Part shown: one piece after another, positions 8,844 to 28,212 of the stretch | How the letters are laid out: each line of letters begins with the position of its first letter | Numbering within the stretch: the stretch's first letter is position 1 | DNA from: a virus | IMG/VR virus record: IMGVR_UViG_3300043788_000169 | Span: 1-64,000 of that record | Length of the DNA stretch: 64,000 nt | Strand: one strand, 5' to 3' | The notes under the pieces: model-generated | Databases searched by the model: none | What the model was told of the DNA's origin: nothing | The model's input: the letters and a program-made list of their open reading frames with translations, nothing else | Position numbers and translations under genes: made by a program

Positions 8844-9037
8844 TGCCCTGCGAGATAGTTCTTACAGGCAAGCCCGGAACGGGCGGGTGGGGGCTGTGTG
8901 TGCGGTGCCGGTGCATCGCCGGGCCGGCGCGGACGCGCTTTCACTGTGACCCGCTCGCGATCGTGTCCAGCCTTTCTGAGGCGTGGGCTGTCTGGCATGG
9001 CCACGTTGCGCAAAAGCGTCTGGAGGCAGCAGCATGA
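8843..9037 (+). CDS. small Cys-containing hypothetical protein
   Basis: Overlapping start/stop codons on both sides. Confidence 0.5.
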   Translation: MPCEIVLTGKPGTGGWGLCVRCRCIAGPARTRFHCDPLAIVSSLSEAWAVWHGHVAQKRLEAAA

Positions 9038-10197: not shown

Positions 10198-10233
10198 GGC
10201 TGCCGCCGGTCCCCGGGTGGCGATAGCTCGTGC

Positions 10234-11190
10234 ATGAGAATCCTGGTGACCGGCGGGGCCGGCTTTATCGGGTCGGCGCTGGTGCGCCGGCTGGCAGCGG
10301 ATGACCATGAAGTCGTCGTGCTGGACGACTGCTCCCGGGGGCAGTTTGAGCGCCTGACCGGAGTGCCCTGCCACCGGATCCCTGGGGATGTCCGGGACGA
10401 GGACGCGGTCCTGGAGGGCATGCAGGGCTGCGATGCTGTGATTCACGCCGCGTATCTGCAAGGCACCCAGACGTTCTACGCCGAGCCCCGTGCGGTGCTC
10501 GATGTCGCGCTGCGCGGGATCCTGAATGTCCTGTCGGCCTGCGAGAAGCGCGGGACGCCTGACCTGCTGCTCATCTCCAGCTCCGAGGCATATCAGGTTG
10601 CGCCCACAGTGCCGACGCCGGAGGAGATCCCGCTCGTCGTCCCCGATGTGCAGAATCCGCGGTACAGCTACGGCGGCGGGAAGATCTCCTCCGAGCTGTG
10701 CGCTCTCGCCTGGCATCACGCCGGAGTGCTCGACCGCGCCATCATCGCCCGGCCGCACAACGTCATCGGGCCGGACATGGGCCGCGAGCACGTGATCCCG
10801 GAGTTCGCCATCCGGATGGGCAAGCTCGTGCGTGAGCACCACCGCGGGGTCATCCCGTTCCCGATCCAGGGCACGGGCGGGGAGACACGCAGCTTCTGCT
10901 ACATAGATGACTGCGTGGAGCAGCTGTACCGGCTGCTCATGCGTGCGCCGGAGGGCCCGAGCGTCTGGCACGTCGGGAACATGGACGAGCGTACGATAGC
11001 CGACGTCGCTTACGCGGTGGCTGCCTGTTACGGCCGGGAGATCAAGGTCGTGCCGGGCAAGCTGCCCAAGGGCTCGCCTCCGCGGCGCCTGCCGGACACC
11101 GCCAAGATCGAGGCTCTCGGGTGCAAGGCCGTGGTCCCGTTTGATGAGGCTGTGCGCCGGACGGTCGCCTGGTACCAGCACAATGGGTGA
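10234..11190 (+). CDS. NAD-dependent sugar epimerase/dehydratase (extended SDR)
   Basis: VTGGAGFIGS, SSSEAY, YGGGK, TRSFCYIDD. Confidence 0.92.
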   Translation: MRILVTGGAGFIGSALVRRLAADDHEVVVLDDCSRGQFERLTGVPCHRIPGDVRDEDAVLEGMQGCDAVIHAAYLQGTQTFYAEPRAVLDVALRGILNVLSACEKRGTPDLLLISSSEAYQVAPTVPTPEEIPLVVPDVQNPRYSYGGGKISSELCALAWHHAGVLDRAIIARPHNVIGPDMGREHVIPEFAIRMGKLVREHHRGVIPFPIQGTGGETRSFCYIDDCVEQLYRLLMRAPEGPSVWHVGNMDERTIADVAYAVAACYGREIKVVPGKLPKGSPPRRLPDTAKIEALGCKAVVPFDEAVRRTVAWYQHNG

Positions 11191-12313
11191 GGTCACCGAG
11201 TGCGGAATCTGCGGCAGCCCGGAGCTGGACCTCCTCCTGGACATGGGGCTGCAGCCGCTGGCCGAGCGCGAGAGCCCGCTGTACCCGCTGGTCTTGCTGA
11301 AGTGCACCAACTGCACGCTGGTGCAGCTCAGTTACATCGTGGATCAGCAGGAGGTGTTCCCTCCCGATCACCCGTACGCCACCGGCAACACCCGGTTCCT
11401 GCGCGAGCACTTCGCGAGGCTGGCGGCCGAGCTGGTGGCCAAGAGGCTGAAGCACGGTGATCTGGCGATCGACATCGGCGCGAACGACGGCACCCTGCTG
11501 GCGGAGATCGGGCTGGCGGCGCCAGGCGTGCGGCTGGCCGCGGTCGAGCCCACTAACCAGGCCCGCAAGTGCCGTCAGCGCGGCATCAGCACCTACCAGA
11601 AATTCTTCACCCCGGAGGTGGCCGGCGAGATTCTGCACGCCCACGGCTGGGCCAAGGTCATCACCGCCAGCAATGTGCTGGCTCACGTCCCGGACCCGCA
11701 CGGGTTCGTGCACGGGGTCACCACGCTGCTGGACCCGGATGGCGGTGTGTTTGTCACCGAGAACCATGATTGGTCCAGCATTATCAATGGTCTGCAGGTC
11801 GACACCATCTACCACGAGCATCTGAGGTATTACTCTGTCGCAGCTCTGTCGCACCTGCTGGCTGTGCACGGCCTTGAGGTGTCCGGTGTCGAGCCGGTGC
11901 CTACGCACGGGGGATCCCTGCGGGTGACCGCCTGCAAGACCAGAGGCTCGCTCAGGAACCGCTCCAGGCAGGCCATGAGTTCGCTGCGCACCCTGGTGGC
12001 CCGGGCGGCCGCGGCGGGCCCGGTCTACGGCATCGGCGCAGCGACCCGCGCGACCCCGCTGATTCACTACGCCGGGATTGCGGACCAGCTCGCCTGTGTC
12101 TGTGAGGTCTCCACCAGTGAGAAGATAGGAACGTGCATGCCGGGCACCGCCATCCCGGTGGTGGATGAGGCCAAGCTGGTGGCTGACCAGCCGCCGCACG
12201 CTCTGCTGTTCTCCTGGCACATCGCGGACAGCCTGGTCCCCAAGCTCCGTGAGATGGGTTACCGTGGCAGGCTGATCGTTCCCCTCCCAGAGCCGAGGAT
12301 CATAGATGGCTAA
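11183..12313 (+). CDS. NDP-hexose C-methyltransferase
   Basis: N-terminal CGIC..CTNC Zn domain, DIGANDGTLL, NVLAH, DTIYHEH, THGGSL. Confidence 0.88.
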   Translation: MGEVTECGICGSPELDLLLDMGLQPLAERESPLYPLVLLKCTNCTLVQLSYIVDQQEVFPPDHPYATGNTRFLREHFARLAAELVAKRLKHGDLAIDIGANDGTLLAEIGLAAPGVRLAAVEPTNQARKCRQRGISTYQKFFTPEVAGEILHAHGWAKVITASNVLAHVPDPHGFVHGVTTLLDPDGGVFVTENHDWSSIINGLQVDTIYHEHLRYYSVAALSHLLAVHGLEVSGVEPVPTHGGSLRVTACKTRGSLRNRSRQAMSSLRTLVARAAAAGPVYGIGAATRATPLIHYAGIADQLACVCEVSTSEKIGTCMPGTAIPVVDEAKLVADQPPHALLFSWHIADSLVPKLREMGYRGRLIVPLPEPRIIDG

Positions 12314-12668
12314 GAGCTTCGAGGATGAGCGCGGCCTGATTCAGGATCTCTTCGAGGGTCCGCTCGACGCTGTGACACGGATCTTCACCGTAGCGGGGGG
12401 TGTGCGCGGGAACCACATTCACCGCGAGACTCACCAGTGGACCTACGTCTGGAGCGGGTCGATGCTCACTGTCCTGGAAGACGACGCCGGGCAGCGCCAC
12501 GAGGACACCCGTTATCCGGGAGACCTGGTTCACGAGCCGCCGGGTATGGCGCACGCCTGGAGGGCTCTGGAGGACACCTGGGTGCTGGTCTTCACCTGCG
12601 GCCCGCGCTCGGGCGAGAACTACGAGAGCGACGTCCAGCGCCTGGCACCGGAGGATCACCTGCTGTGA
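12306..12668 (+). CDS. cupin-fold sugar isomerase/epimerase
   Basis: FEDERG, VRGNHIH, PPGMAHAW. Confidence 0.75.
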   Translation: MAKSFEDERGLIQDLFEGPLDAVTRIFTVAGGVRGNHIHRETHQWTYVWSGSMLTVLEDDAGQRHEDTRYPGDLVHEPPGMAHAWRALEDTWVLVFTCGPRSGENYESDVQRLAPEDHLL

Positions 12669-13501
12669 GCGATTTCAGCGACATGTGCGTCATCGTGATG
12701 GCGTGGCGCCGTCCCTACTACCTGCGCCGGACCCTGATGTCCTGGGCCGCCGTCCCCGAGGTCAAGCAGATCGCCAAGTTCGCCATCGGCCTGGGCGAGC
12801 ATCCCCGCAAGGGGGAAAACCTGGCGGTGGTCGCTGAGGCCGAGGAAGTTATGGGGCGGTCTATCGATATCTGGCCAGACAGCCCCCAGGCGCAGGCGAG
12901 CCCGGCGATGCACCGGCCTATGGGCGAGGCAGCCAACCTTGCGTGGTCGCATCCGGAGATAGGGTGGGTGATCCTCTGCGAGGACGACAGCCCGGTATCC
13001 GACGACATCCTGCGCTACCAGCGCTGGGCCCGGGACACCTTCGAGGATGACCCGCGGGTGCTCCTGGTGTGCTCGCACAACATCCCGTGGGTGGAAAGCG
13101 GCCCTGGGGTGGTCGACGGCTACAGCCTGGCGCCTTCGGACAAGGTTCCCCACCCGCCTGATGAGGCTAATGAGGACCAGAGCGCGGTCCGGCTCAAGCA
13201 GGGGTTTGACTCGCGCAGCTGGGGCACGTGGCGTGACCGGTGGGAGCAGATCCTGGAGCCTACCTGGGACTGGGAGTGCAATTCAGGGGGCGCCAACGAC
13301 TCTGGCATCGACTGGAACATAGCTACCCGGGTGATGCCCCGGGGCGGGTATCTGTCCGCGGTGCCCGATGCTTGCCGGTGTCTCAATATTGGCCGCGACG
13401 AGGGTGTCTACATGATCGCGGCCGACAAGCCGGAAGGCTGGGTCAGCTCACAGTCTTTCCGGGAGCACCGCGGGGATGTCGAGTACAGGATCGTGAGATA
13501 A
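12665..13501 (+). CDS. GT-A fold glycosyltransferase
   Basis: AWRRPYYLRRTL, ILCEDD, WGTWRDRW. Confidence 0.75.
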   Translation: MSDFSDMCVIVMAWRRPYYLRRTLMSWAAVPEVKQIAKFAIGLGEHPRKGENLAVVAEAEEVMGRSIDIWPDSPQAQASPAMHRPMGEAANLAWSHPEIGWVILCEDDSPVSDDILRYQRWARDTFEDDPRVLLVCSHNIPWVESGPGVVDGYSLAPSDKVPHPPDEANEDQSAVRLKQGFDSRSWGTWRDRWEQILEPTWDWECNSGGANDSGIDWNIATRVMPRGGYLSAVPDACRCLNIGRDEGVYMIAADKPEGWVSSQSFREHRGDVEYRIVR

Positions 13502-14140
13502 ATGCAGATCACCTCGTGCGGGAAGCCCCTTACTATCCCGGATATGTACGCCGGGGATTACGAGCAGGAAATCGAGATCCGGGACCGGTGGTGGCGCATA
13601 GAGCCAGGTGACGTCGTCCTCGACATCGGGGCCTCCCTCGGCACCTACACCCTCCCGGCGCTGGCCCGTGGTGCGACGGTCTACGCCGTGGATGTGCTGG
13701 AGCAGAGCCCGCTGATCGCGATGGTGGAGGCTAACGGATTCGCAGACGCTGCCGTCTTCATTAAGGTGGCCATGGGTGACGCCCACGGCTACCCGCCGGA
13801 ACTCACCGCCGCGGTGCATGCGAACCCGGTCATCTACCCCGGCCTTGCCGACACCGCCTGGACCACGGTGGACCGGCTGGCGGAAGAATGTTCCCTCACC
13901 CGCCTGGACTGGATCAAGATCGATACTGAGGGCGCTGAGGTGCCGATCCTGCGGGGTGCTGGCGAGACGCTGGCCCGCTTCCACCCGACGCTGCTGATCG
14001 AGGAGCACTCTCATCTGCCGCACATCCGTGCGATGGACAACGCCAATCAGCTGCGCGGGATCCTCGGCCACCACGGCTACACCCACGAGGTGGCGGTTTA
14101 CAAAGAGCGTGAGCTGTGGTTCTGCACCTGGGCAGGATGA
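13502..14140 (+). CDS. FkbM-family methyltransferase
   Basis: VLDIGASLGTYT, IKIDTEGAE, P.LLIE. Confidence 0.88.
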   Translation: MQITSCGKPLTIPDMYAGDYEQEIEIRDRWWRIEPGDVVLDIGASLGTYTLPALARGATVYAVDVLEQSPLIAMVEANGFADAAVFIKVAMGDAHGYPPELTAAVHANPVIYPGLADTAWTTVDRLAEECSLTRLDWIKIDTEGAEVPILRGAGETLARFHPTLLIEEHSHLPHIRAMDNANQLRGILGHHGYTHEVAVYKERELWFCTWAG

Positions 14141-14141
14141 C

Positions 14142-14927
14142 GTGGCTCTGCGGTGGCACCCATTCATGTTCTATAACGAATTTGAATGGCTGGAATGCCA
14201 GCTCACTGAGACCTATGAGCGGATGCACCGCTACATCCTGATCGAGGCCACGCTGGATCATCAGGGGCATTCCAAGCCGCTGTACTACGATGAGAACAAG
14301 GACCGCTTCGCCCAGTGGTCGGACAAGATTATTCATCTCATCGTCCGGAATCTGCCCACCGCCCAGACGACGGCTAACCACTGGGAGAGAGAGCGGCCGC
14401 AGCGCGACGCGGCCATGGCTGTGCTCGAAGCACAGGCGAAGCCGGAAGACCTGGTCATCAACATGGACGTGGACGAGGTGCCGTCCCCGACTACCATGCT
14501 GTGCGAGACCAGCCAGATCCTTGGGCTGCGCGTTGCCAATCACCTGTTTGCCGTGGACTGGTTTGCTGAGCTGGGCGTCATGGGCACGCTCATCCCGGTG
14601 CACTGCCTGGACTTCTCCGGCCAGCCTTCCGAGATCGCCGGGGCGGTCCGCGGCGGTCTGTCCTGGGTTCGTGAGCACCGCCCGGACTACCCGGTGCTGG
14701 AGCACGCCGGTCACCACTTCTCCTGGGTCGGCGGGGTTGAGGAGTACCGGGTCAAGGACCAGCGCTCGCCGCACACCGAGCACAGTGCTGAGCGCATGGC
14801 CGAGGGCCAGCCTGAGCGTGCTTACTACGAAGGTGGCGGCTCCCAGGTAGCCTGTGAGGCTGATGAGACCTATCCGCGCTACATCCGGGAGCGCCGCTGC
14901 CCGCCGGGCTGGTTCCGCCCTCGCTAG
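14142..14927 (+). CDS. GT17-like N-acetylglucosaminyltransferase
   Basis: FMFYNE, IEA..H.G..KPLYY, DVDEVP, GHHFSW. Confidence 0.8.
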   Translation: MALRWHPFMFYNEFEWLECQLTETYERMHRYILIEATLDHQGHSKPLYYDENKDRFAQWSDKIIHLIVRNLPTAQTTANHWERERPQRDAAMAVLEAQAKPEDLVINMDVDEVPSPTTMLCETSQILGLRVANHLFAVDWFAELGVMGTLIPVHCLDFSGQPSEIAGAVRGGLSWVREHRPDYPVLEHAGHHFSWVGGVEEYRVKDQRSPHTEHSAERMAEGQPERAYYEGGGSQVACEADETYPRYIRERRCPPGWFRPR

Positions 14928-15628: not shown

Positions 15629-15721
15629 GCCCCCGTAGCCCAACTGGCGAGGCGCACCAGTTAAACGGTTTGCGACGCGAATGCGACGCGTTTGCGGGTT
15701 CGAGTCCCGCCGGGGGCACCA
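15629..15721 (+). tRNA. tRNA-Leu(TAA), atypical anticodon arm, long variable arm, encoded CCA
   Basis: GCCCCCG/CGGGGGC acceptor, TTCGAGT T-loop, loop GTTAAAC. Confidence 0.7.
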
Positions 15722-15754
15722 GATGAAGTTCTGCAAGATGGCCCGGAAAAATAG

Positions 15755-15783
15755 TTGACACGGGTCTACCGGCATCGTATGGT
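15755..15783 (+). promoter_or_regulatory. sigma70/HrdB-like promoter upstream of the tRNA array
   Basis: TTGACA-N17-TATGGT. Confidence 0.75.
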
Positions 15784-15789
15784 AGGTAC

Positions 15790-15888
15790 ATGATGAAGTA
15801 CAGGTACTCAGAGCAGCGAGTGCAGGATGGCAATCATGCCATCCCGTGCCCCGCCATGCTGGGGACCAGCGAGGTGGCTTCTGGGTAG
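15790..15888 (+). CDS. putative leaderless 32-aa leader peptide
   Basis: ATG 6 nt after the -10 box; MMKYRYSEQRVQ...SG*. Confidence 0.4.
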   Translation: MMKYRYSEQRVQDGNHAIPCPAMLGTSEVASG

Positions 15889-15908
15889 ACCGCAAGGAAC
15901 TCCGGAAA

Positions 15909-15950
15909 GCCGCTCGCAGGGACAGAAGCCCTCGCGGGCGGTTTGCGTTT
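15909..15950 (+). terminator. terminator/attenuator-like hairpin before the tRNA array
   Basis: GCCGCTCGC-AGGG..CCCT-CGCGGGCGGT followed by a T-rich tract. Confidence 0.5.
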
Positions 15951-15961
15951 CAACTGAACAT

Positions 15962-16034
15962 AGGGACGTAGTTCAGCGGCCAGAACGGCAGCCTCCAAAA
16001 CTGCGCGTCGGGGGTTCGACTCCTCCCGTCCCTG
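15962..16034 (+). tRNA. tRNA-Trp(CCA)
   Basis: cloverleaf, loop CTCCAAA. Confidence 0.9.
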
Positions 16035-16213
16035 CGGAGCACCACCCTGAAGGCTGGGGTGAACGTGCCAGCAGATTGATAACTCAACAGCGTGAGCATC
16101 GCCCAGGGCGCCATCCCTGGGCACAAGACTCCCCGAGCCGGGTGCACGGCAGCTCGTGGCAACGCCGCGGTTGCCGTGCCGGGCGGAAACGTCGGCCCGG
16201 CCGGGGAGCACAT

Positions 16214-16285
16214 GGGGATGAGAAGCTGAGGTAGCGACCGCGCCCTGCAAGCGTTGGTGACTCGGTTCGATTCCGAGCATCTCCA
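16214..16285 (+). tRNA. tRNA-Ala(TGC), C33
   Basis: G3.U70 and A73; loop CCTGCAA; weak D arm. Confidence 0.7.
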
Positions 16286-16370
16286 CGGCGTTTTTGGCAG
16301 CTGCCCACGTCCTGGCGCATCAGGTAACCCCTGCTCTGTCCCCAGATCAGGCTAAAAACAACTGCCACCA

Positions 16371-16444
16371 CGGGATATGGCTCAGTTTGGCAGAGCGCGC
16401 GGTCCGGGGCCGCGAGGGCGCTGGTTCAAATCCAGCTATCCCGA
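16371..16444 (+). tRNA. tRNA-Pro(CGG), C33
   Basis: stem CGCGG/CCGCG, loop TCCGGGG. Confidence 0.88.
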
Positions 16445-16585
16445 CATGGTCCGGTGAGTAGGGATGACAACCGAGGGGCCGGGCAGCAACGTGGGATCAA
16501 CATGTGAGTCGACCTTTGCCCACCCGCAAGCGGGAACCTGCGGAGTTAGTCACCGCAGCAGCCTGGGAAGCGGTCGGTCGGACAA

Positions 16586-16657
16586 CGGGATGTCGCGTAA
16601 GGGTTAGCGCGCCTGCTTTGGGAGCAGGCAGTCAAGGTTCGAGTCCTTGTATCCCGA
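16586..16657 (+). tRNA. tRNA-Pro(TGG)
   Basis: loop TTTGGGA. Confidence 0.9.
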
Positions 16658-16659
16658 CC

Positions 16660-16792
16660 GGGGGAGATGCGGGTTCGAGTCCCGTCCTGTCCGTGAAAAC
16701 TCTCCGCGGCGGCCGATCTGCAGGCGGCTGGCCGGCCAGGGCCCTGGTCAGGAGAGGGACAGGTAGTCCAACTGGCAGGACGCCTCCTCTAG
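16660..16792 (+). ncRNA. circularly permuted tRNA-like gene (3' half 16660-16693, 5' half 16757-16792)
   Basis: CCTGTCC pairs with GGACAGG; T arm precedes D arm; GGGGG pairs with CCTCC. Confidence 0.7.
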
Positions 16793-16915
16793 TTCTGGTG
16801 CGGCTTACCACGGCTCGGCTGGGGTTCGGGAGAAGAACGTCCGGGAGGTCGAGCACAATACGCGGGCTCAGTCCCGCGCAAACGGCGGCCGGAAGCTGTG
16901 GGAGCACCAGCACAT

Positions 16916-16988
16916 GGGTCTGTAGCTCAGATGGGAGAGCAGCCGTCCGAAAAGCGGCAGGTCGAGGATTCGATCGCCTCCGGGCCCA
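16916..16988 (+). tRNA. tRNA-Phe(GAA), C33
   Basis: loop CCGAAAA. Confidence 0.88.
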
Positions 16989-17157
16989 CGATGGCATGAC
17001 GGTCAGGCCGTAGTCAGCCGGTAGGCCGACGAGCACGAGTCGACATGCTCTGTAAAGCTCCGCTGTGGCCACAGCGGAGTCTCATGTCAGCCCGGCCACT
17101 GTGCTGGGCGCGCTAGTTGCGGGTACCTCCTGCGTCAGTGGAGCGAACCTCCAATCT

Positions 17158-17229
17158 GGGGACGTGACCGAACGGCACAGGTGCCAGGCTTCCACCCTGG
17201 TCACGCGGGTTCGACTCCCGCCGTCCTCT
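17158..17229 (+). tRNA. tRNA-Gly(TCC)
   Basis: loop CTTCCAC, U73. Confidence 0.88.
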
Positions 17230-17334
17230 CGGTGACGAGCAGGGTGCCATTCCCTGTGATCGCGCAAGTGGCTGGCAGGCCGCGGCCGGGCAGGCTCTGG
17301 GAGACTGCCATCTTGCAGAGGTGCCCGGTTTTAT

Positions 17335-17407
17335 GCGCTGCGAGCATGTCTGGCTATGCACCGGACTCTTAATCCGGGGAACACGGGTTCGATCCCCTGG
17401 CGGCGCA
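17335..17407 (+). tRNA. tRNA-Lys(CTT)
   Basis: loop CTCTTAA. Confidence 0.88.
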
Positions 17408-17408
17408 C

Positions 17409-17484
17409 GGGCGAGTACGTCCAACAGGCAGAGCGGCCGGCCTCAAAATCCGCGCGGTTGCGGGTTCGATTCCCGCCTCGCCTA
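17409..17484 (+). tRNA. tRNA-Leu(CAA), short variable arm
   Basis: loop CTCAAAA. Confidence 0.8.
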
Positions 17485-17489
17485 CACGA

Positions 17490-17563
17490 TGGAGCATGGT
17501 GGTAATTCGGTATCCCACTGGGCCCTGAACCCAGGGATCCAGGTTCGAGTCCTGGTGCTCCAG
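17490..17563 (+). tRNA. tRNA-Gln(CTG), C33
   Basis: U1-A72, loop CCCTGAA. Confidence 0.88.
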
Positions 17564-17662
17564 CTAGTCCCGGCCCGGCTTTCCCTGAATCGACAGGCGA
17601 CCCCGAAGCGCGACGGCGCATAAGGGGACGGGCGCGACGGTGCAGCCCGGCCGGGACTTCAC

Positions 17663-17737
17663 GCCTCCGTAGCTCAATGGTGGAGCAGTGCCCCCGTAAG
17701 GCACAGGCCGCAGGGTCGGTACCTGCCGGAGGCTCCA
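17663..17737 (+). tRNA. tRNA-Thr(CGT), C33, aberrant T-loop GTCGGTA
   Basis: loop CCCGTAA, encoded CCA. Confidence 0.8.
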
Positions 17738-17738
17738 T

Positions 17739-17824
17739 GTGCTCGTGGCGGAACAGGTATACGCGCTAGCCCGAGATGCTAGTGCTCCGCAAGGGGCGTG
17801 CGGGTTCGACTCCCGCCGAGCGCA
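17739..17824 (+). tRNA. tRNA-Leu(GAG), C33
   Basis: loop CCGAGAT, long variable arm. Confidence 0.88.
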
Positions 17825-17924
17825 CGGGGAGAGAGATCCGGACATAGCGTCGCCGGCAGCCTCTCAGGGCATCCTGGGAAGGCGGGTAGTTCAAGAGCTT
17901 AGAAGAATACTCTCCCAGCTTTCT

Positions 17925-17992
17925 GCCGTCAGGCCAGCGCCGGCCATGCTCTTGTAAAGCACTGGCCTCCGGATCGGCACCGGACGACGGCT
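17925..17992 (+). tRNA. tRNA-Thr(TGT), degenerate D arm and T-loop
   Basis: GCCGTC/GACGGC acceptor, loop CTTGTAA. Confidence 0.6.
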
Positions 17993-17997
17993 CTCAA

Positions 17998-18068
17998 TGG
18001 AGGATCAGATAATGGCAGTCGGCCGGGTTTTGGCCCCGGCAGTCGTGGTTCGAGTCCACGTCCTCCAG
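17998..18068 (+). tRNA. tRNA-Gln(TTG)
   Basis: loop TTTTGGC. Confidence 0.88.
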
Positions 18069-18072
18069 CTAT

Positions 18073-18144
18073 GCCTGCCTAGTGGTAACGGCAGCACGCG
18101 TCCTTGGTAAGGACGTAGACGGAGTTCAATTCTCCGGGCAGGCT
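18073..18144 (+). tRNA. tRNA-Thr(GGT)
   Basis: loop TTGGTAA. Confidence 0.88.
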
Positions 18145-18180
18145 CTCGATCCCCGCACTCTTGGGTGGTGCGGGGCTCAT

Positions 18181-18253
18181 GCGGATGTAGCTCAGTGGTC
18201 AGAGCGTCACCTTGCCAAGGTGAGGGCCGCGGGTTCGATCCCCGCTATCCGCT
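18181..18253 (+). tRNA. tRNA-Gly(GCC)
   Basis: loop TTGCCAA. Confidence 0.92.
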
Positions 18254-18347
18254 CGGCTCTGGGGAGTGCGAGGACAAGAGCGAGGCGGCGGCCTCATCTC
18301 TTAGGGAGCACACGAAGCGCGGCCGGAGGGGACCGCCTTCATCTGAT

Positions 18348-18431
18348 GTCCCGGTGGCGTAATAGGCAGCCGCGCACGGCTCAGACCCGTGTGTCCGGAA
18401 GGACGTGAGGGTTCGACCCCCTCCTGGGACA
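18348..18431 (+). tRNA. tRNA-Leu(CAG)
   Basis: loop CTCAGAC, long variable arm. Confidence 0.9.
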
Positions 18432-18473
18432 CGATAAAAGGCACCGCCCCGCTGCTACGAGACGGTGCCTGCT

Positions 18474-18544
18474 GGTCCCCTGGCCGAGTGGCTAGGCGCT
18501 GGCCTGCAAAGCCAGATAGATCGGTTCGAGTCCGATGGGGGCCT
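18474..18544 (+). tRNA. tRNA-Cys(GCA)
   Basis: loop CTGCAAA, U73. Confidence 0.9.
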
Positions 18545-18764
18545 CTACCCGTGGAACATGGTGTTGGGGTTGGCCTGCGTGGTCGTCTGCTGGGCTCCGT
18601 TGCCTGGCGGGACCGCATTCGCTGAGGCTCCGGCCGCGCTCAGGAGAGCGCCGAGCGCAATGCCTGCGGCGAGGAGGGCTGCTAGAAGTCGAGAGCGCAT
18701 GATCTTTCACCTTTCTGCCAGTAGTTGCCAGGGTACGCCTAGGCGATTGTTCTGCAACAGGCAT

Positions 18765-18849
18765 GGAGCGGTGGCCGAGCGGCCTATGGCGGTGTCCTGC
18801 TAAGGCACTCACCGGAAACGGTGCGCGGGTTCAAATCCCGCTCGCTCCT
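18765..18849 (+). tRNA. tRNA-Ser(GCT)
   Basis: loop CTGCTAA, long variable arm. Confidence 0.9.
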
Positions 18850-18852
18850 CTT

Positions 18853-18946
18853 GGAGGGATAAGCCGAGTTGGTCTACCGGCTGCCGTCCCGAAAACGGTT
18901 AGGGGTGATGAGCCCCGTGTGGGTTCGAGTCCCACTCCCTCCTCCA
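18853..18946 (+). tRNA. tRNA-Ser(CGA), C33
   Basis: loop CCCGAAA, long variable arm, encoded CCA. Confidence 0.88.
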
Positions 18947-18947
18947 A

Positions 18948-19020
18948 CCGCCTCGACTCAGCCGGTGACGAGGCTCGTCTGATAAGCGAGTACCGCGTGG
19001 TTCAACTCCACGGGGGCGGA
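18948..19020 (+). tRNA. tRNA-Ile(GAT)
   Basis: loop CTGATAA. Confidence 0.85.
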
Positions 19021-19021
19021 C

Positions 19022-19095
19022 TGGCCGGTAGCTAAAAGGTGACGGCGCCTGTCCTATAAACAGGAGATGTGCGGGTTCGACCCCCGCCCGGCCTA
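19022..19095 (+). tRNA. tRNA-Ile(TAT), C33
   Basis: stem CCTGT/ACAGG, loop CCTATAA. Confidence 0.82.
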
Positions 19096-19099
19096 CTAG

Positions 19100-19172
19100 G
19101 CTCCCCGCGCCCGACTGGACGGGCACCGGACTTTTAATCCGGACTGACTGGGTTCGATTCCTTGGGGGAGCA
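19100..19172 (+). tRNA. tRNA-Lys(TTT)
   Basis: loop CTTTTAA. Confidence 0.85.
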
Positions 19173-19244
19173 CTGGGTGGCTGGCGGGCGCCAGCGCTGG
19201 CGGAGTGACGTCCCCGCCTCCCATGAACGCGAGGCCGCCTTAAA

Positions 19245-19316
19245 GCGTCGCTGGTGTAAAGGAAGCGCGCTCGCCTTCTAAGCGAGATGGTCCCGGTTCG
19301 AGTCCGGGGTGACGCA
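19245..19316 (+). tRNA. tRNA-Arg(TCT)
   Basis: loop CTTCTAA. Confidence 0.88.
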
Positions 19317-19326
19317 CGGTTTACAT

Positions 19327-19397
19327 GGCCCTATCGTCTAACGGCAGGATCGCTGGTTCTCAGCCAGTAGGCCGGGGTTCAACTCCCCGTAGGGCTA
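19327..19397 (+). tRNA. tRNA-Glu(CTC)
   Basis: loop TTCTCAG. Confidence 0.88.
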
Positions 19398-19401
19398 CTT
19401 T

Positions 19402-19479
19402 GCCGCTGTTACTCTGATGGCAAGGGGTAGCCGGGTTTTCACCCCGGACACGACGCGGGTTCGATTCCCGTCAGCGGCT
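19402..19479 (+). tRNA. tRNA-Glu(TTC)
   Basis: loop TTTTCAC. Confidence 0.82.
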
Positions 19480-19480
19480 C

Positions 19481-19554
19481 TGCGGACAGCAGCACCGGCC
19501 GTGCTGAACGGTCTCATAAGCCGAGATAGCTGGGTTCGACTCCCAGGTCCGCAA
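19481..19554 (+). tRNA. tRNA-Met(CAT), initiator-like
   Basis: loop CTCATAA. Confidence 0.8.
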
Positions 19555-19558
19555 CTGA

Positions 19559-19629
19559 TCCGGTGTCATTCAATGGCAGGATGCGTGACTGTTAATCACG
19601 TCATATTGGTTCGACCCCAATCACCGGAG
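19559..19629 (+). tRNA. tRNA-Asn(GTT)
   Basis: loop CTGTTAA. Confidence 0.9.
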
Positions 19630-19674
19630 CCCGCGGAACGTCCTTGGCCCCGCGTTAAAAACTAAGGGCAGCAT

Positions 19675-19748
19675 GGTGGCGTAGCACAACTGGCTAGTGC
19701 ACCACCCCGTCAAGGTGGATTGTGCGGGTTCAAGTCCCGTCGTCATCG
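19675..19748 (+). tRNA. tRNA-Asp(GTC), C33
   Basis: stem CCACC/GGTGG, loop CCGTCAA. Confidence 0.88.
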
Positions 19749-19749
19749 C

Positions 19750-19780
19750 GAGAGCGGAGGTTCAAATCCTCCCTCCCAGC
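19750..19780 (+). pseudogene. orphan tRNA 3' half (T arm plus acceptor strand)
   Basis: GGAGG TTCAAAT CCTCC CTCCCAG with no adjacent 5' half. Confidence 0.55.
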
Positions 19781-19785
19781 TTCAT

Positions 19786-19859
19786 GGGTGCTTAGCTCAG
19801 CGGTAGAGCGGCAGCACGACAAGCTGTGTCACGCGGAGGTTCGATCCCTCCAGCGCCCA
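19786..19859 (+). tRNA. tRNA-Val(GAC), C33
   Basis: loop ACGACAA. Confidence 0.86.
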
Positions 19860-19944
19860 CGGGAAGGTCCGGCTGGCAGATGGCTAGGCTGCCGAGTGTG
19901 CGCGCACTACCCGTTCGATTCGGGAACGGGCTCTCCCGGTACAC

Positions 19945-20016
19945 GCGTCCATCGTTCAACGGATAGGGCACCAGGCTACGGACCTGGGAATGGGGGTTCG
20001 AGTCCCTCTGGGCGCA
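19945..20016 (+). tRNA. tRNA-Arg(ACG)
   Basis: loop CTACGGA. Confidence 0.9.
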
Positions 20017-20061
20017 CGGCGCGGACACCGGCATCCTGCGGGATGTCAGGACCGCGCGCAC

Positions 20062-20133
20062 GGGCTGTTAGCTCAGCGGCAGAGCTGCGCCTCCACACGG
20101 CGTGCAGCGGAGGTTCGAGTCCTCCACGGCCCA
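20062..20133 (+). tRNA. tRNA-Val(CAC), C33
   Basis: loop TCCACAC. Confidence 0.88.
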
Positions 20134-20134
20134 C

Positions 20135-20213
20135 GGTGAATGAATCCAAAGAGGAGGCGGGGCCTGGCCGTGAACCAGGTATTTAGCGGGTTCGACGCCC
20201 GTCATTCACCCCA
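20135..20213 (+). tRNA. tRNA-His(GTG), C33
   Basis: G-1/C73, loop CCGTGAA, encoded CCA. Confidence 0.85.
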
Positions 20214-20294
20214 GCCAGCTTGGCCGAGTGGGCGAAGGCACCTGCCTGTAAAGCAGGCTCGAAAGACGCGGTGGTTCAAATCCATCAGCTGGCA
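20214..20294 (+). tRNA. tRNA-Tyr(GTA)
   Basis: loop CTGTAAA. Confidence 0.9.
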
Positions 20295-20299
20295 CGCAA

Positions 20300-20368
20300 G
20301 TCCCCGGCAGCGGATCTGCCGCGGAGGTTCCGAACCTTGGCTGCCCAGTCCGACTCTGGGCGGGGACA
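20300..20368 (+). tRNA. tRNA-Arg(CCG), degenerate
   Basis: loop TTCCGAA, T-loop TCCGACT. Confidence 0.65.
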
Positions 20369-20369
20369 C

Positions 20370-20444
20370 TGGCCTGAAGCTCAATGGACGAGCTGCTGCC
20401 CCCTAAGCAGATGGTTGCGGGTTCGAGTCCCGTCAGGCCGGCCA
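20370..20444 (+). tRNA. tRNA-Arg(CCT), C33
   Basis: loop CCCCTAA, encoded CCA. Confidence 0.85.
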
Positions 20445-22755: not shown

Positions 22756-23763
22756 GTGTACCTGGAGCGCGTGCTGGCGGCAACGGCTGAAACGCCGACA
22801 GCCTCAACCGTTCCAAAACCACTACATCCCGGTGGCCCTGGTCTCTGGCGTCATAAGCACTGGATGGCCCCGCCCTACGTGGAGCACGTAGCGCAAGCGC
22901 TTATGCGTCGGGGAAAGTCGGAGTCCGAGGCTTACCACATGGCTGTTGGTTTGATGCACTCATGGAGTGCAGGTCACGACGGCCACGGCCACCACGTGCA
23001 CGCCGACGTCAAGGCAGCGGCGGCCGCGAACCTCGCCAAGTGGGAGGAGCTGCGTGGCCGGGCCCACGCCAGCCATCTCGCAAAGAAGGCAAAGGGCCAC
23101 TCGCGGGACAAGCGCCACCACGACCTCGCGGCCAGCGCTGCGTGGGACGAGATCGGTGAGCTGATGGTGGAGTTCGCCCGGACCGCCCCGCTCGACATCG
23201 TGGAGCTGGCCTCGGGCCCGACCTATTTCTACGACGCTTCGATGCTCAAGGGAGGATCGGAGGCCAGCGCGCCGGGCGCCAAGCGGATCACCAGCAACCA
23301 GCTGCGCCAGAACCCGAGCCAGACAGTTGCCGCCAACCCCCCGCTGCCGCCCGGCGTCACGCTGCCTACCCCGGCCGAGCTGAACCAGCTCGCCGCGAAC
23401 ATCTCCTCGGCCGGCCTGCCCGAGAGCGACCTCATCCGCGGCGCCCGCGACCACGCCCGGGCAGCAGCCATGAAGATGCAGGCTAACCAGCCGGTCGACG
23501 CGCTGCACATGCTGCGCGCGTGCCAGGCGGGGATCGTCTCAGCCCACCGGGAGTACAACGGCAGCCTCATCCCGGTGGCCAACGTGTTCAGCGCGCGGCT
23601 GGCGCCTGCTGAAGCCGCCTCGGCGCGAGCCGAGATGTTCGAGGGACTGAAGACCCGCGACACCTTCCGCCAGCTGGCTACGCAGTGTGCGCAGTTCATT
23701 GACCGGATCCGCCGTCACATCTTCCATGGTTTGTATAACCACATGGCCGAGGCAAGGTTCTAG
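22756..23763 (+). CDS. hypothetical, candidate internal head protein
   Basis: 335-aa ORF, TCGAT-N9-GTG. Confidence 0.7.
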   Translation: MYLERVLAATAETPTASTVPKPLHPGGPGLWRHKHWMAPPYVEHVAQALMRRGKSESEAYHMAVGLMHSWSAGHDGHGHHVHADVKAAAAANLAKWEELRGRAHASHLAKKAKGHSRDKRHHDLAASAAWDEIGELMVEFARTAPLDIVELASGPTYFYDASMLKGGSEASAPGAKRITSNQLRQNPSQTVAANPPLPPGVTLPTPAELNQLAANISSAGLPESDLIRGARDHARAAAMKMQANQPVDALHMLRACQAGIVSAHREYNGSLIPVANVFSARLAPAEAASARAEMFEGLKTRDTFRQLATQCAQFIDRIRRHIFHGLYNHMAEARF

Positions 23764-24380
23764 TGGACAAGGTCACCCGCCTGCTCGCGCTGGCGGCACA
23801 GGACATCAGCCCGTCGAGCACGATGATCTACCTGCAGGCCCCGCCAGCGCTGTTTCCTGGTGAGGTGATCGACAAGCCCGGCCACCTCACCGTGGTGTAT
23901 CTGGGCAAGGTCGGGCAGGCCGAGTTCACCACTGCCTGCGAGCGGGCGAAGTCCGCGGCCGGCGCGGTGCCGCCGATCCATGCCACGATTGGCGGCCTCG
24001 GCTCGTTCGAGCCGACGGAGAACTCCGACGGCAAGAAGGTCTACTACTGCCCGGTCTACGGCGACGGCATCCACTGGCTGCGAGCGCTGCTGGCCGACCT
24101 CGCCGCGCCGAACGCGCTGCCGTTCGTCCCGCACATCACCCTGGCCTACGCGGACGAGGGTGAGGACCCGCCGTCCCCGGTCACCAGTGGCCGGCTGTGC
24201 TTCACTCAGCTGTACGTTTCCCGCGGGGCGCAGATCTGCGCCTATCCGCTGAAAGGCGGCCACGAGCCGCACGGTTCCGGTCAGCACATGCGGGACCGGC
24301 GGCCGGGCGAGGCTCCGCTGAGCCGGATCGACGCTGTGATGGAGCTGGCTGACAAGGTGGCGCCGGGATGGCGCCCCTAG
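23763..24380 (+). CDS. 2H phosphoesterase (2'-5' RNA ligase/Acb1-like fold)
   Basis: two HxT motifs: HLTVVYLG and PHITLAY. Confidence 0.85.
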   Translation: MDKVTRLLALAAQDISPSSTMIYLQAPPALFPGEVIDKPGHLTVVYLGKVGQAEFTTACERAKSAAGAVPPIHATIGGLGSFEPTENSDGKKVYYCPVYGDGIHWLRALLADLAAPNALPFVPHITLAYADEGEDPPSPVTSGRLCFTQLYVSRGAQICAYPLKGGHEPHGSGQHMRDRRPGEAPLSRIDAVMELADKVAPGWRP

Positions 24381-26205: not shown

Positions 26206-28212
26206 GTGACAGCCTGGGATCTGTCCGGCGCTGTCGAGCGCCGGGTAACGGCAGCCGCCGCCTCTCTCGATGACTTCGAGCACGAGCTGCCGGTCCCGCT
26301 TGATGTCTTCGTGCAGGACACCCGCTACCTGGGCAACCCGCCGCTGAGCCCGGAGCAGTACGAGGCGGTCCGGCACGCTGAGCGCATCTACATGGCCGAG
26401 ACCTACCCGATCCTGGCCTCGGTGGATGACCCGGCCATCGCCTCCTACTGGGCGCAGCCCTGCCGGATGGTCAACTTCCTGGACCTGGAGTGGGGCAAGG
26501 GCTCGGGCAAAGACCACTCCAGCCGGATCATGAACCTGAGAGTGGTCTACCTGCTGCTGTGCCTGAAGAGCCCGCAGCAGTATTTCCAGATGCCCGAGCA
26601 GGACACCATCCACACCCTCAACGTCGCGACCTCCTCGGCCCAGGCCGGCCGCGCGTTCTTCGCTCCCATGCGCCGGGCGGTGTCCCGGCCCGGCAACTGG
26701 TTCGCCCACGTCTCCGAGGCGGTGGAGGCCGGCGGCGGGGCCCGGCGGGAGACCCGTGCGCTGCTCAACCTCATCCGCTTTGATAAGAACATCGAGGCGA
26801 TCTCCGGCCACTCCGACGCCGACAGCCAGGAGGGCCTGAACTTGCTCTTCGGGGTGGCGGACGAGGTCGATGGCTTCAAGAGCCAGGCCGAGCTGGAGAA
26901 GGAACGTGGTGCCAGGGCCCGGGAGAGCGCCAGCTCGGCCGAGGCCATCCTGAACATGCTGCGCACGTCGGCGGCCACCCGGTTCCCGCACACCTACAAG
27001 AACGTCCGGATCAGCTACCCGCGCTATCTCGGGTCCACGATCCAGAAGCTGGTCGAGAGGGCCAAGCTCGACAACCAGGTCCGCGGTGCACGCTCGCGCT
27101 ACTACGTCTCCGGGCCCAAGTGCACCTGGGAGGTCAACCCGCGCATCACCCGCGAGTCGCTGCAGCCGGACTACGACGACGACGCGGCGCTGGCCCGGGC
27201 CAAGTACGAGTGCCGCCCCGGCCGGGCGGTCAACCCCTACTTCGGCAATGAGATGGCAATCCGGGCCGCCTGCTTCCAGGTGGCCAAGGACCCGGTCACG
27301 GTCGTGGATTACGTGCGCGATGCCGGGGCGTGGGCCCCGTTCTACGACTACGCGGATTACTTCCTGCCGATCCGCGGCGCCCGGTATGCGATGCACGCTG
27401 ACCTGTCCGTCCGGGGCGACCGCGCGGGCGTGGCCATGAGCCACATTGTCCGGTGGGACGAGCGCCAGGCGATCGGCCGCGGTCCCATGGGTGAGAACGT
27501 CTACCTGACGGAGAAGCGCCCGATCGTCAAGACCGACTTCGTGATCAGCTACGAGGCCGACGCTGGCCGCGAGCCGCCGCTGGAGATCCAGCTGCGGTGG
27601 TTCCGCCAGCTGGTGCTCGACCTGCGCACCCGCGGGTTCAACATCGTCCAGGCGTCCGCCGACGGCTACCAGAGCACCGACACCGCCCAGATCCTGCAGG
27701 CCCACGGCATCGAGTTCGTGATCCGCTCGACCGACCGCACCGAGGAGCACTGGTCGTCCCTGCGCGACGTGGCTTACGAGGGCCGGTGGTCCATGCCGCT
27801 GCGCGAGCTGGCCATCACCGAGCTGCTGGGCCTGTCCCGGCTGCCGAACGGCAAGATCGACCACCTGGGCGACGGCAGCAAGGATGAGGCCGACGCCATC
27901 GCCTGCTCGATCTCCGGCGCACTGGAGGTGCTGGGCGAGGAGGACCCGGACGGCCTGCAGGCGTGGCCTGCCGGGGTGATGGAGAACTGGGGCGGAACGC
28001 CACTGTTCAACCTGCCTATTGGCTTTGTGCCACCTAGCGTTTTCCGGCCGGATGAGGTCATGCCCCAGCTGGTGGCGGTCGACGGCCGCGGGATGCCTAT
28101 GTGGCTGCCTGATGCCACCGAGCCCGGATCGGACCAGTGCCCGTGCCGCGGGCAGGACGGCGTGGCCCGGTGCATGGAGTGCCGGATGGCCGTGACGCCC
28201 CGTCAGCAGTAG
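26206..28212 (+). CDS. terminase large subunit
   Basis: Walker A GKGSGKD, Walker B VADEVD, ISYPR, nuclease HADLS..DGYQS..KIDH..KDEADA. Confidence 0.9.
   Translation: MTAWDLSGAVERRVTAAAASLDDFEHELPVPLDVFVQDTRYLGNPPLSPEQYEAVRHAERIYMAETYPILASVDDPAIASYWAQPCRMVNFLDLEWGKGSGKDHSSRIMNLRVVYLLLCLKSPQQYFQMPEQDTIHTLNVATSSAQAGRAFFAPMRRAVSRPGNWFAHVSEAVEAGGGARRETRALLNLIRFDKNIEAISGHSDADSQEGLNLLFGVADEVDGFKSQAELEKERGARARESASSAEAILNMLRTSAATRFPHTYKNVRISYPRYLGSTIQKLVERAKLDNQVRGARSRYYVSGPKCTWEVNPRITRESLQPDYDDDAALARAKYECRPGRAVNPYFGNEMAIRAACFQVAKDPVTVVDYVRDAGAWAPFYDYADYFLPIRGARYAMHADLSVRGDRAGVAMSHIVRWDERQAIGRGPMGENVYLTEKRPIVKTDFVISYEADAGREPPLEIQLRWFRQLVLDLRTRGFNIVQASADGYQSTDTAQILQAHGIEFVIRSTDRTEEHWSSLRDVAYEGRWSMPLRELAITELLGLSRLPNGKIDHLGDGSKDEADAIACSISGALEVLGEEDPDGLQAWPAGVMENWGGTPLFNLPIGFVPPSVFRPDEVMPQLVAVDGRGMPMWLPDATEPGSDQCPCRGQDGVARCMECRMAVTPRQQ

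What the first reader, a model, noticed from the sequence alone, without database searches (positions are those of the whole stretch)
16214..20444. Thirteen of 36 tRNAs replace the near-invariant U33 with C
Seen: anticodon loops CC-TGC-AA (Ala), TC-CGG-GG (Pro), CC-GAA-AA (Phe), CC-CTG-AA (Gln), CC-CGT-AA (Thr), CC-GAG-AT (Leu), CC-CGA-AA (Ser), CC-TAT-AA (Ile), CC-GTC-AA (Asp), AC-GAC-AA (Val), TC-CAC-AC (Val), CC-GTG-AA (His), CC-CCT-AA (Arg), mostly in otherwise well-formed cloverleaves; this includes the only Ala, Phe, Asp, His and Val tRNAs in the array. Known: U33 forms the anticodon U-turn and is almost universal in bacterial tRNAs; anticodon nucleases read the loop sequence; C-to-U tRNA editing exists at other positions (C8 in Methanopyrus). 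Inference: the same change at one position across unrelated tRNAs is not random decay. It suggests either systematic escape from host anticodon nucleases or an undescribed C33-to-U editing/modification step. No deaminase motif was seen in this window.
Basis: partly seen in the sequence, partly recalled or inferred. Interest (0 to 1): 0.88.

Follow-up and report, generated by a model that had tools for sequence, protein, structure and literature searches.

The report
Phage tRNA set rich in C33
About a third of the intact transfer RNA genes of this uncultured GC-rich soil phage carry C where almost all tRNAs have the U-turn uridine; the swap is real and lineage-specific, but whether it is tolerated drift or an escape from host enzymes is still open.

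Summary
Observation confirmed. The window is part of a 132.5-kb, 67% GC phage genome from soil metagenomes. Its tRNA array (15629-20444, + strand) holds 31 ARAGORN tRNAs, and 11 of them have C33. Infernal aligns C to the U33 column independently.

Four related arrays share the trait: 30 C33 of 120 tRNAs, with no purine at 33. Eight other phages give 10 of 206. The other invariant T positions do not drift to C. C33 tRNAs have intact stems, show compensatory changes between orthologues, and read major codons. They are therefore not pseudogenes.

No deaminase gene was found. Independent DNA assemblies show C at these sites. No RNA data cover them.

Why C33 is so frequent is unresolved:
- Tolerated pyrimidine swap under GC pressure: about 0.45.
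- Escape from a host factor that acts on the anticodon loop: about 0.35.

This scan has already reported C33-rich phage and mobile tRNA arrays on other DNA: 87 notes, one of them on a relative. My literature searches found no paper describing it.

The parts
15629..20444 (+). tRNA gene array of the phage. It holds 31 ARAGORN tRNAs, plus Lys-CTT (17335-17408), Ala-like, Thr-TGT-like and His-like genes, all on the + strand.
16214..16286 (+). Ala-TGC tRNA-like gene with loop CC TGC AA (C33 at 16245). It keeps G3:T70 and has a weak D arm. It is called only at the relaxed ARAGORN threshold.
16371..16445 (+). tRNA-Pro(CGG), loop TC CGG GG, C33 at 16404
   Evidence: Rfam 58.1 bits
16916..16989 (+). 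tRNA-Phe(GAA), loop CC GAA AA (no U in the loop), C33 at 16948. It is the only Phe tRNA of the array.
17490..17564 (+). tRNA-Gln(CTG), loop CC CTG AA, C33 at 17524. C33 is shared with L002 and L003.
17663..17737 (+). tRNA-Thr(CGT), loop CC CGT AA, C33 at 17694
17739..17825 (+). tRNA-Leu(GAG), loop CC GAG AT, C33 at 17772. C33 is shared with L002 and L003.
18853..18946 (+). tRNA-Ser(CGA), loop CC CGA AA (no U in the loop), C33 at 18889. C33 is present in all 3 orthologues found.
19022..19096 (+). tRNA-Ile(TAT), loop CC TAT AA, C33 at 19054
19675..19749 (+). tRNA-Asp(GTC), loop CC GTC AA, C33 at 19708. It is the only Asp tRNA of the array.
19786..19860 (+). tRNA-Val(GAC), loop AC GAC AA (no U in the loop), C33 at 19817
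20062..20134 (+). tRNA-Val(CAC), loop TC CAC AC, C33 at 20093. Mycobacterium phage Tonenili tRNA-Val(CAC) has the same 7-base loop.
20135..20210 (+). His-GTG tRNA-like gene, loop CC GTG AA (C33 at 20169). It has a G-1:C73 pair and folds as a cloverleaf, but neither ARAGORN nor Rfam calls it.
20370..20444 (+). tRNA-Arg(CCT), loop CC CCT AA, C33 at 20401
23763..24380 (+). LigT-like 2H phosphoesterase gene, 3.3 kb downstream of the array and conserved in the close relative G001. It is a possible RNA-end healing or cyclic-nucleotide phosphodiesterase. This is context only; no link to C33 is shown.

Best explanation
The C33s are encoded in the genome of an uncultured GC-rich tailed phage. They sit in intact tRNA genes that selection maintains. 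These tRNAs are most likely used as they are, without editing.

U33-to-C is a pyrimidine swap that the ribosome tolerates. In this phage lineage the preference for U over C at position 33 is weak. The tRNAs are auxiliary ones that work beside the host's own set. GC-biased mutation therefore drives many of them to C. Position 33 has become a variable 'Y' position that flips between close relatives, while purines stay excluded.

Shown: the C33s are real; they are specific to this position and this lineage; the genes are intact; no deaminase gene is present.

Inferred: that the tRNAs are expressed and decode, and that tolerance plus mutation pressure, not positive selection, sets the frequency.
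For: Reality and specificity:
- 11 of 31 tRNAs in the window carry C33, and Infernal agrees.
- DNA contigs of two runs show no other letter at these sites.
- In the lineage, 30 of 120 tRNAs have C33 and none has A or G. Eight other phages have 10 C33 and 1 A33 in 206.

Intact genes:
- C33 tRNAs pair at 98.6% of 17 stem positions (n=30), against 97.8% for U33 tRNAs (n=90).
- Orthologue pairs that both have C33 show 48 double changes that keep pairing and 0 that break it.
- Rfam scores of the C33 tRNAs lie in the same range as those of the U33 tRNAs.
- They are the Watson-Crick readers of major codons: GAC 80% of Asp, TTC 94%, CAG 98%, CCG 58%, GTC and GTG 46% each.

Behaviour as a variable position:
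- Between orthologues, position 33 changes as often as positions 32 and 38. For window versus L002 the counts are 3, 2 and 3 of 27; for window versus L006 they are 7, 5 and 8 of 17.
- Positions 53-56, 58 and 61 change 0 to 1 times.

GC trend:
- C33 is 1 of 84 in three phages of 46-55% GC, 5 of 78 in three of 63-67% GC, and 30 of 120 here.
- At the free position 59, C/(C+T) is 22/47 in the lineage against 3/38 in the high-GC controls.

Tolerance in experiments:
- Yeast tRNA-Leu(GAG) is naturally C33, and changing it to U33 makes little difference (bioRxiv 10.64898/2026.02.20.707122, passages).
- U33C stem-loops remain as good substrates as wild type for colicin E5 and gamma-toxin. That suggests a near-normal loop.

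No deaminase was found.
Against: - GC content does not rank the high-GC phages. The window has 37% C33 and L002 33%. The relatives L003, L006 and L007 have equal or higher GC but only 12-18%. Myrna, CcrRogue and Tonenili have similar GC and 4-8%.
- C33 is not spread at random over tRNA species. In the eight control phages, 5 of 8 Val-GAC/CAC tRNAs have C33, against 5 of 198 others (p = 4.5e-6).
- In the lineage C33 avoids U34 tRNAs (2 of 25 against 28 of 95, p = 0.036).
- It also avoids loops with two or more other U (3 of 37 against 27 of 83, p = 0.005).
- U8 shows no T-to-C excess (3 C of 120).
- These patterns suggest a specific factor, either selection or tRNA-specific tolerance.
- Expression, charging and decoding were not observed. 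The RNA contigs that I laid do not cover any C33 site.
Confidence: 0.45

Rival explanations
1. Adaptive escape. C33 is kept because it hides these tRNAs from a host factor that reads or cuts the anticodon loop at or next to U33. Candidates are a uridine-specific HEPN- or Cas13-type RNase or a VapC-type toxin. The phage's own decoders would then survive when host tRNAs are destroyed.
For: - The enrichment is specific to this lineage and this position, and GC does not rank it.
- The same isoacceptors recur with C33 in unrelated phages. Val-GAC/CAC has it in Myrna, Tonenili, CcrRogue and RcXuper, Gln-CTG in Pumpernickel, and Ile-GAT in CcrRogue and RcXuper.
- C33 concentrates in loops with few other U, and 9 lineage loops have no U at all.
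- A preprint reports Cas13b6 cuts flanking U33 of E. coli tRNA-Val(GAC) (passages).
- tRNA-Ser(CGA) is a VapC target in mycobacteria (passages).
- The general hypothesis is in print (PMC10264068; abstract and Results read).
- A LigT-like 2H phosphoesterase lies near the array.
Against: - No nuclease or host is identified.
- In the two published tests that I found, U33C did not protect against colicin E5 or gamma-toxin.
- C33 flips between close relatives at about the rate of free loop positions, as a neutral site would.
- Most C33 loops (21 of 30) still contain U.
- No RNA ligase or RtcB repair gene was found.
- The GC trend across phages is not expected for an escape mutation.
Confidence: 0.35
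2. C33 tunes decoding. It might restrict wobble or change speed on the phage's preferred G/C-ending codons, and is selected for translation itself.
For: C33 occurs mostly in C34 and G34 tRNAs that read major codons.
Against: The yeast data show almost no effect of C33 against U33 on decoding. No pattern by amino acid or codon box was seen. Nothing here measures decoding.
Confidence: 0.08
3. C33 is converted to U or to a modified base after transcription, by editing or modification.
For: There is only the general precedent of C-to-U tRNA editing at other positions (recalled, not from a call). The host enzyme repertoire is unknown.
Against: - No dCMP/cytidine-deaminase or MafB19-type deaminase domain is found in G000 or in the complete relative G001.
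- No deaminase zinc motif occurs in the six frames.
- C33 flips to T and back at the DNA level among relatives. That would be pointless if editing restored U.
- Natural C33 tRNAs work unedited.
Confidence: 0.04
4. The C33 genes are decaying pseudogenes, or the C is an assembly or sequencing artefact.
For: The array does contain degenerate members: the Ala-like and His-like genes, T-arm remnants at about 16660-16693 and 19750-19785, and an odd 8-base-loop tRNA.
Against: - Stems are intact, with 48 compensatory double changes against 0 breaks.
- T-loop invariants are kept.
- Rfam scores match those of the U33 tRNAs.
- The same C33 is seen in separately assembled relatives and in contigs of two DNA runs.
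Confidence: 0.03

Closest known systems
Large tRNA arrays of actinobacteriophages (cluster C mycobacteriophages such as Tonenili, and Myrna)
   Same: Dozens of co-oriented tRNA genes in a >130-kb GC-rich phage. Their Val-GAC and Val-CAC tRNAs also carry C33. Tonenili Val-CAC has the same loop, TC CAC AC, as the window's.
   Different: Those phages have C33 in only 1 of 28 and 2 of 26 tRNAs, against 11 of 30 here. The phage itself is not related to them. The nearest isolate by portal protein is Microbacterium phage Magritte, at 51% identity.
Nuclease-insensitive phage tRNAs (hypothesis of van den Berg et al. 2023, PMC10264068; T5 tRNAs against retron and PARIS effectors, PMC11555353 seen as search listing only)
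   Same: Phage-encoded tRNAs whose anticodon loops depart from the canonical sequence.
   Different: The words U33, C33 and position 33 do not occur in the main text of that paper; its supplementary tables were not available to me. No host, host tRNA or nuclease is known here, so resistance is untested.
Natural C33 elongator tRNA: S. cerevisiae tRNA-Leu(GAG)
   Same: C33 in a working elongator tRNA, and the same anticodon (GAG) as one of the conserved C33 tRNAs here. The C33U change has a minor effect.
   Different: It is a single eukaryotic gene, not a third of a tRNA set, and the ribosome is not bacterial.
Long tRNA arrays of bacteria and plasmids (trn operon of Anabaena PCC 7120, mycobacterial tRNA array units; PMC8421152, PMC5966550, PMC4758250)
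   Same: Dense accessory tRNA gene arrays with non-canonical members.
   Different: Those arrays are cellular or on plasmids. By the term counts in the search listing, none of those papers contains U33, C33 or 'position 33'.

Membership tests
Canonical bacterial-type tRNA (Rfam RF00005) | Cloverleaf scoring above the Rfam gathering score (29 bits) | tested here: met
   10 of the 11 C33 tRNAs score 32.7-58.1 bits to RF00005. Ser-CGA is best matched by the related tRNA-Sec model at 39.3 bits, below that model's cut-off of 47. The Ala-like and His-like genes give no hit at E<=1.
Canonical bacterial-type tRNA (Rfam RF00005) | Invariant T-loop (G53 T54 T55 C56 A58 C61) and GG in the D loop | tested here: met
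   Window, 30 tRNAs: G53 29, T54 29, T55 30, C56 30, A58 29, C61 29, GG 30. ARAGORN detection favours these features.
Canonical bacterial-type tRNA (Rfam RF00005) | U at position 33 (U-turn) | tested here: not met
   C in 11 of 30 seven-base loops in the window.
Nuclease-insensitive phage tRNAs | Encoded by a phage | tested here: met
   Terminase, portal, protease, clamp and clamp-loader genes are on the same 132.5-kb contig.
Nuclease-insensitive phage tRNAs | Loop differs from the host's cognate tRNA at a nuclease recognition or cleavage site | not testable with these tools
   The host is unknown. No relative was found in 185,579 species genomes by terminase.
Nuclease-insensitive phage tRNAs | Resistance to cleavage shown | not testable with these tools
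   This needs an enzyme assay. Published U33C tests with colicin E5 and gamma-toxin show no protection.
tRNA pseudogenes | Broken stems, or loss of invariant positions in general | tested here: not met
   98.6% of stem positions pair. There are 48 compensatory double changes and 0 double breaks among C33 orthologue pairs.
C-to-U edited tRNAs | A cytidine deaminase that acts on tRNA | tested here: not met
   PF00383 and PF14437 are absent from G000 and G001, and no zinc motif is present. A host enzyme cannot be excluded.
C-to-U edited tRNAs | RNA reads show U where the DNA has C | tested here: inconclusive
   Among the pieces listed, the RNA contigs that match without a difference cover only 18482-18827, and 17002-17154 with one difference. 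None of these covers a C33 site.

The most novel reading that the evidence does not exclude
C33 is a cheap, general escape mutation. It would remove the uridine that a host anticodon-loop RNase needs (a uridine-specific HEPN- or Cas13-like or toxin-type enzyme) while leaving decoding intact. This phage lineage would have applied it across most of its tRNA set, leaving several loops with no U at all. C33 would then be a readable genomic signature of tRNA-targeting immunity in the unknown host.
Probability: 0.3. Interest if true: 0.8.

Novelty: new variant of a known kind. Interest (0 to 1): 0.5.

Why it matters
U33 is one of the most conserved nucleotides in biology, and textbooks treat it as required for the anticodon U-turn. 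Here a phage supplies its only Phe, Asp and Val tRNAs, and the readers of its commonest Gln and Pro codons, with C33.

If these tRNAs work, bacterial ribosomes accept C33 elongator tRNAs broadly. Position 33 would then be held in cells by something other than decoding alone.

If the swap proves to protect against a host nuclease, it would be a simple marker for tRNA-targeting defence and a design rule for nuclease-resistant tRNAs. If it is drift, it measures how weak selection on auxiliary phage tRNAs is.

The same pattern has turned up repeatedly in this scan, so it is a general feature of phage and mobile tRNA arrays. My literature searches did not find it described.

Tried and rejected
Searches and look-ups that gave nothing useful:
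- Megablast of the array against 50,697 phage records found no match.
- Microbacterium phage Magritte is the nearest isolate. The part I read, 90-133 kb, has no tRNA, so it was of no use for comparison.
- 24 of the 26 metagenome loci related by terminase had no tRNA in the fetched stretch. Three of them lie on contigs of 125-140 kb that are not held for whole-record search.
- A second IMG/VR scan with the terminase alignment returned only the same two loci.
- No relative was found in the species-genome collection, so no host could be named.

RNA evidence:
- Two metatranscriptome runs were laid. Among the pieces listed, their contigs that match without a difference cover 18482-18827, and one covers 17002-17154 with one difference. 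These are spacers plus the Cys and Ser-GCT genes. They say nothing about position 33 or about expression of the C33 tRNAs, and DNA carry-over cannot be excluded.

Ideas tested and dropped:
- RNA repair genes: RtcB (searched in G000 only), RNA_ligase and a CCA-adding enzyme were not found.
- U-free loops as the rule: only 9 of 30 C33 loops lack U entirely.
- t6A-dependent (ANN-reading) tRNAs avoiding C33: by my count from the table there is no clear difference (8 of 36 against 22 of 84). This is a hand count, not a script.
- GC content as the sole cause: rejected.
- Hypervariability of the array compared with the rest of the genome: the array is 80-97% identical to L002 and the flanking genes about 90-95%, so it is not special.

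Supplementary files of PMC10264068, which list the loop mutations, were not available and might mention position 33.

Full report
**What the DNA is.** The window is the first 64 kb of a single 132,501-bp contig of 66.8% GC, estimated by CheckV to be 83% complete. It encodes a terminase large subunit (26206-28212), a portal protein (29181-30812), a head protease, a sliding clamp and a clamp loader. It is therefore a tailed phage. The nearest isolate by portal protein is Microbacterium phage Magritte, at 51% identity. Near-identical DNA occurs in soil metagenome runs. The host is unknown, and no relative was found in 185,579 species genomes.

**The observation.** ARAGORN finds 31 tRNA genes at 15629-20444, all on the + strand, and none elsewhere in the genome.
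- Reading positions 32-38 from ARAGORN's anticodon positions gives C33 in 11 of them: Pro-CGG, Phe-GAA, Gln-CTG, Thr-CGT, Leu-GAG, Ser-CGA, Ile-TAT, Asp-GTC, Val-GAC, Val-CAC and Arg-CCT.
- Infernal independently places C in the U33 column for Asp, Val-CAC and Val-GAC, and U for the neighbouring Arg-ACG.
- The His loop lies in a sequence that neither program calls. That sequence folds as a cloverleaf and has the G-1:C73 pair typical of bacterial tRNA-His (the identity rule is recalled).
- Rfam adds a Lys-CTT gene with U33.
- So the figure is 11 of 31 firm, or 13 of about 35 if the weak genes are counted.
- Contigs of two DNA runs cover most C33 sites with no differing letter, and no C33 coordinate is in the list of differences. 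One run may be the source sample.

**Is it more than chance, and is it specific?**
- Four related arrays were found upstream of related terminases.
  - L002: terminase 666 of 668 residues identical, DNA about 90% identical.
  - L003: 79% (best segment).
  - L006 and L007: 58% (best segment).
- They carry C33 in 10 of 30, 3 of 24, 4 of 22 and 2 of 14 tRNAs.
- Over the lineage, position 33 is C in 30 and T in 90 of the 120 seven-base loops, and never A or G.
- Eight other phages with tRNA arrays (Myrna, Pumpernickel, WhereRU, CcrRogue, Tonenili, NiceHouse, Stella and RcXuper) give 10 C33 and 1 A33 in 206 tRNAs. Fisher p = 2e-7 for the lineage and 3e-6 for the window.
- The other invariant T positions do not drift to C in the lineage: U8 is C in 3 of 120, T54 in 1 and T55 in 0. 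ARAGORN selects for a good T loop, so the T-loop figures are partly built in.

**Are the C33 genes alive?**
- C33 tRNAs pair at 98.6% of the 17 acceptor, anticodon and T stem positions (n=30). U33 tRNAs pair at 97.8% (n=90).
- Among orthologue pairs that both have C33 there are 48 double substitutions that keep pairing, 0 that break it, 12 single changes that keep it and 1 that breaks it.
- Their Rfam scores (32.7-58.1 bits) overlap those of the U33 tRNAs (33.7-70.6 bits).
- They are the Watson-Crick readers of major phage codons: GAC is 80% of Asp, TTC 94% of Phe, CAG 98% of Gln, CCG 58% of Pro, and GTC and GTG 46% each of Val. Together these codons make up 279 per mille of the codons in 66 confident ORFs.
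- They are therefore not decaying genes. Expression was not observed.

**Editing.** No dCMP/cytidine-deaminase or MafB19-type deaminase domain is present in this genome or in the complete relative G001. No deaminase zinc motif occurs in any frame. Orthologues flip between C and T at the DNA level, which makes a restoring edit unlikely. Yeast tRNA-Leu(GAG) is naturally C33 and works about as well as a U33 version. A host enzyme cannot be excluded, and no RNA read covers position 33.

**Why so many C33? Evidence for tolerated drift.**
- Between orthologues, position 33 changes as often as the free loop positions 32 and 38. For window versus L002 the counts are 3, 2 and 3 of 27; for window versus L006 they are 7, 5 and 8 of 17. 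Positions 53-56, 58 and 61 change 0 to 1 times.
- C33 rises with GC across phages: 1 of 84, 5 of 78 and 30 of 120.
- At the free position 59, the lineage has far more C than the other GC-rich phages (22/47 against 3/38 as C/(C+T)).
- U33C leaves stem-loops fully cleavable by colicin E5 and gamma-toxin, so the loop is probably close to normal. These two tests also give no support to the idea that C33 protects against nucleases.

**Why so many C33? Evidence for a specific factor.**
- GC does not rank the GC-rich phages (37, 33, 12, 18, 14, 4, 8 and 8%).
- C33 recurs in the same tRNA species in unrelated phages. In the controls, 5 of 8 Val-GAC/CAC tRNAs have it, against 5 of 198 others (p = 4.5e-6). 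Ile-GAT has it in two alphaproteobacterial phages.
- In the lineage C33 avoids U34 tRNAs (p = 0.036) and loops with two or more other U (p = 0.005).
- A preprint reports Cas13b6 cuts flanking U33 of tRNA-Val(GAC), which gives one concrete kind of enzyme that C33 might defeat.
- A LigT-like 2H phosphoesterase lies 3.3 kb downstream of the array. No RNA ligase or RtcB was found.
- These biases could equally mean that GC-rich, U-poor loops simply tolerate C33 better.

**Verdict.** 'Not random decay' is right, editing is unsupported, and nuclease escape is possible but untested. I put tolerated swap under GC pressure at about 0.45, adaptive escape at about 0.35, decoding tuning at 0.08, editing at 0.04, and pseudogenes or artefact at 0.03.

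**Literature and earlier notes.**
- The escape hypothesis for phage tRNAs is published (PMC10264068; abstract and Results read).
- Four searches combining C33 or U33 with phage, anticodon nuclease, tRNA array and related terms found no paper that describes C33-rich phage tRNA sets.
- This scan has noted the same thing 87 times in at least 84 other genomes. One note concerns a relative of this phage, and its follow-up also judged GC pressure and escape to be equally good explanations. Those are unchecked AI notes. I re-tested the claims I use.

Noticed in passing
window 15755-15960: A promoter-like site (TTGACA, 17 bases, TATGGT, at 15755-15783) is followed by a 32-codon mini-ORF (15791-15889). 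By eye, a GC-rich hairpin with a T-rich tail then follows, just before the Trp tRNA. The terminator scan did not list that hairpin.
   Followed up: partly
window 18546-18700 (- strand), hairpin 18439-18470: A 51-codon ORF on the opposite strand sits inside the tRNA array. By eye its N-terminus looks like a signal peptide. It is followed on its own strand by a 14-pair terminator-like hairpin. RNA contigs of two metatranscriptome studies match 18482-18827 and 18487-18708 exactly.
   Followed up: partly
window 15629-15721: A 93-base tRNA-like gene with an 8-base anticodon loop (TT AAAC GG), a weak anticodon stem, a long variable arm and an encoded CCA (Rfam 35.8 bits). It could be a four-base decoder or a non-decoding tRNA-like RNA.
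   Followed up: no
window 16660-16693, 19750-19785, 19853-19936: T-arm-like remnants and sub-threshold tRNA-like stretches lie between array members, which suggests gain and loss of tRNA genes. Another first-reader note reads 16660-16792 as a circularly permuted tRNA.
   Followed up: no
window 4637-14927: Just upstream of the array lies a gene block: a 1084-aa radical SAM protein, an NAD-dependent sugar epimerase, a sugar-type C-methyltransferase, an FkbM-type methyltransferase and a family-17 glycosyltransferase. It looks like a sugar-modification module, possibly for DNA or virion glycosylation.
   Followed up: no
L039 (Rhodobacter phage RcXuper) and L033 (Caulobacter phage CcrRogue): Annotated tRNAs of cultured phages also carry C33. 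In RcXuper these are Val-GAC, Ile-GAT, Thr-GGT and Pro-GGG; in CcrRogue, Ile-GAT and Val-CAC. Both Ile-GAT loops read CC GAT AA.
   Followed up: partly
L031 25867-25940 (Microbacterium phage Pumpernickel): ARAGORN finds a tRNA-Gln(CTG) with C33 that is absent from the record's annotated tRNA list for that stretch.
   Followed up: no
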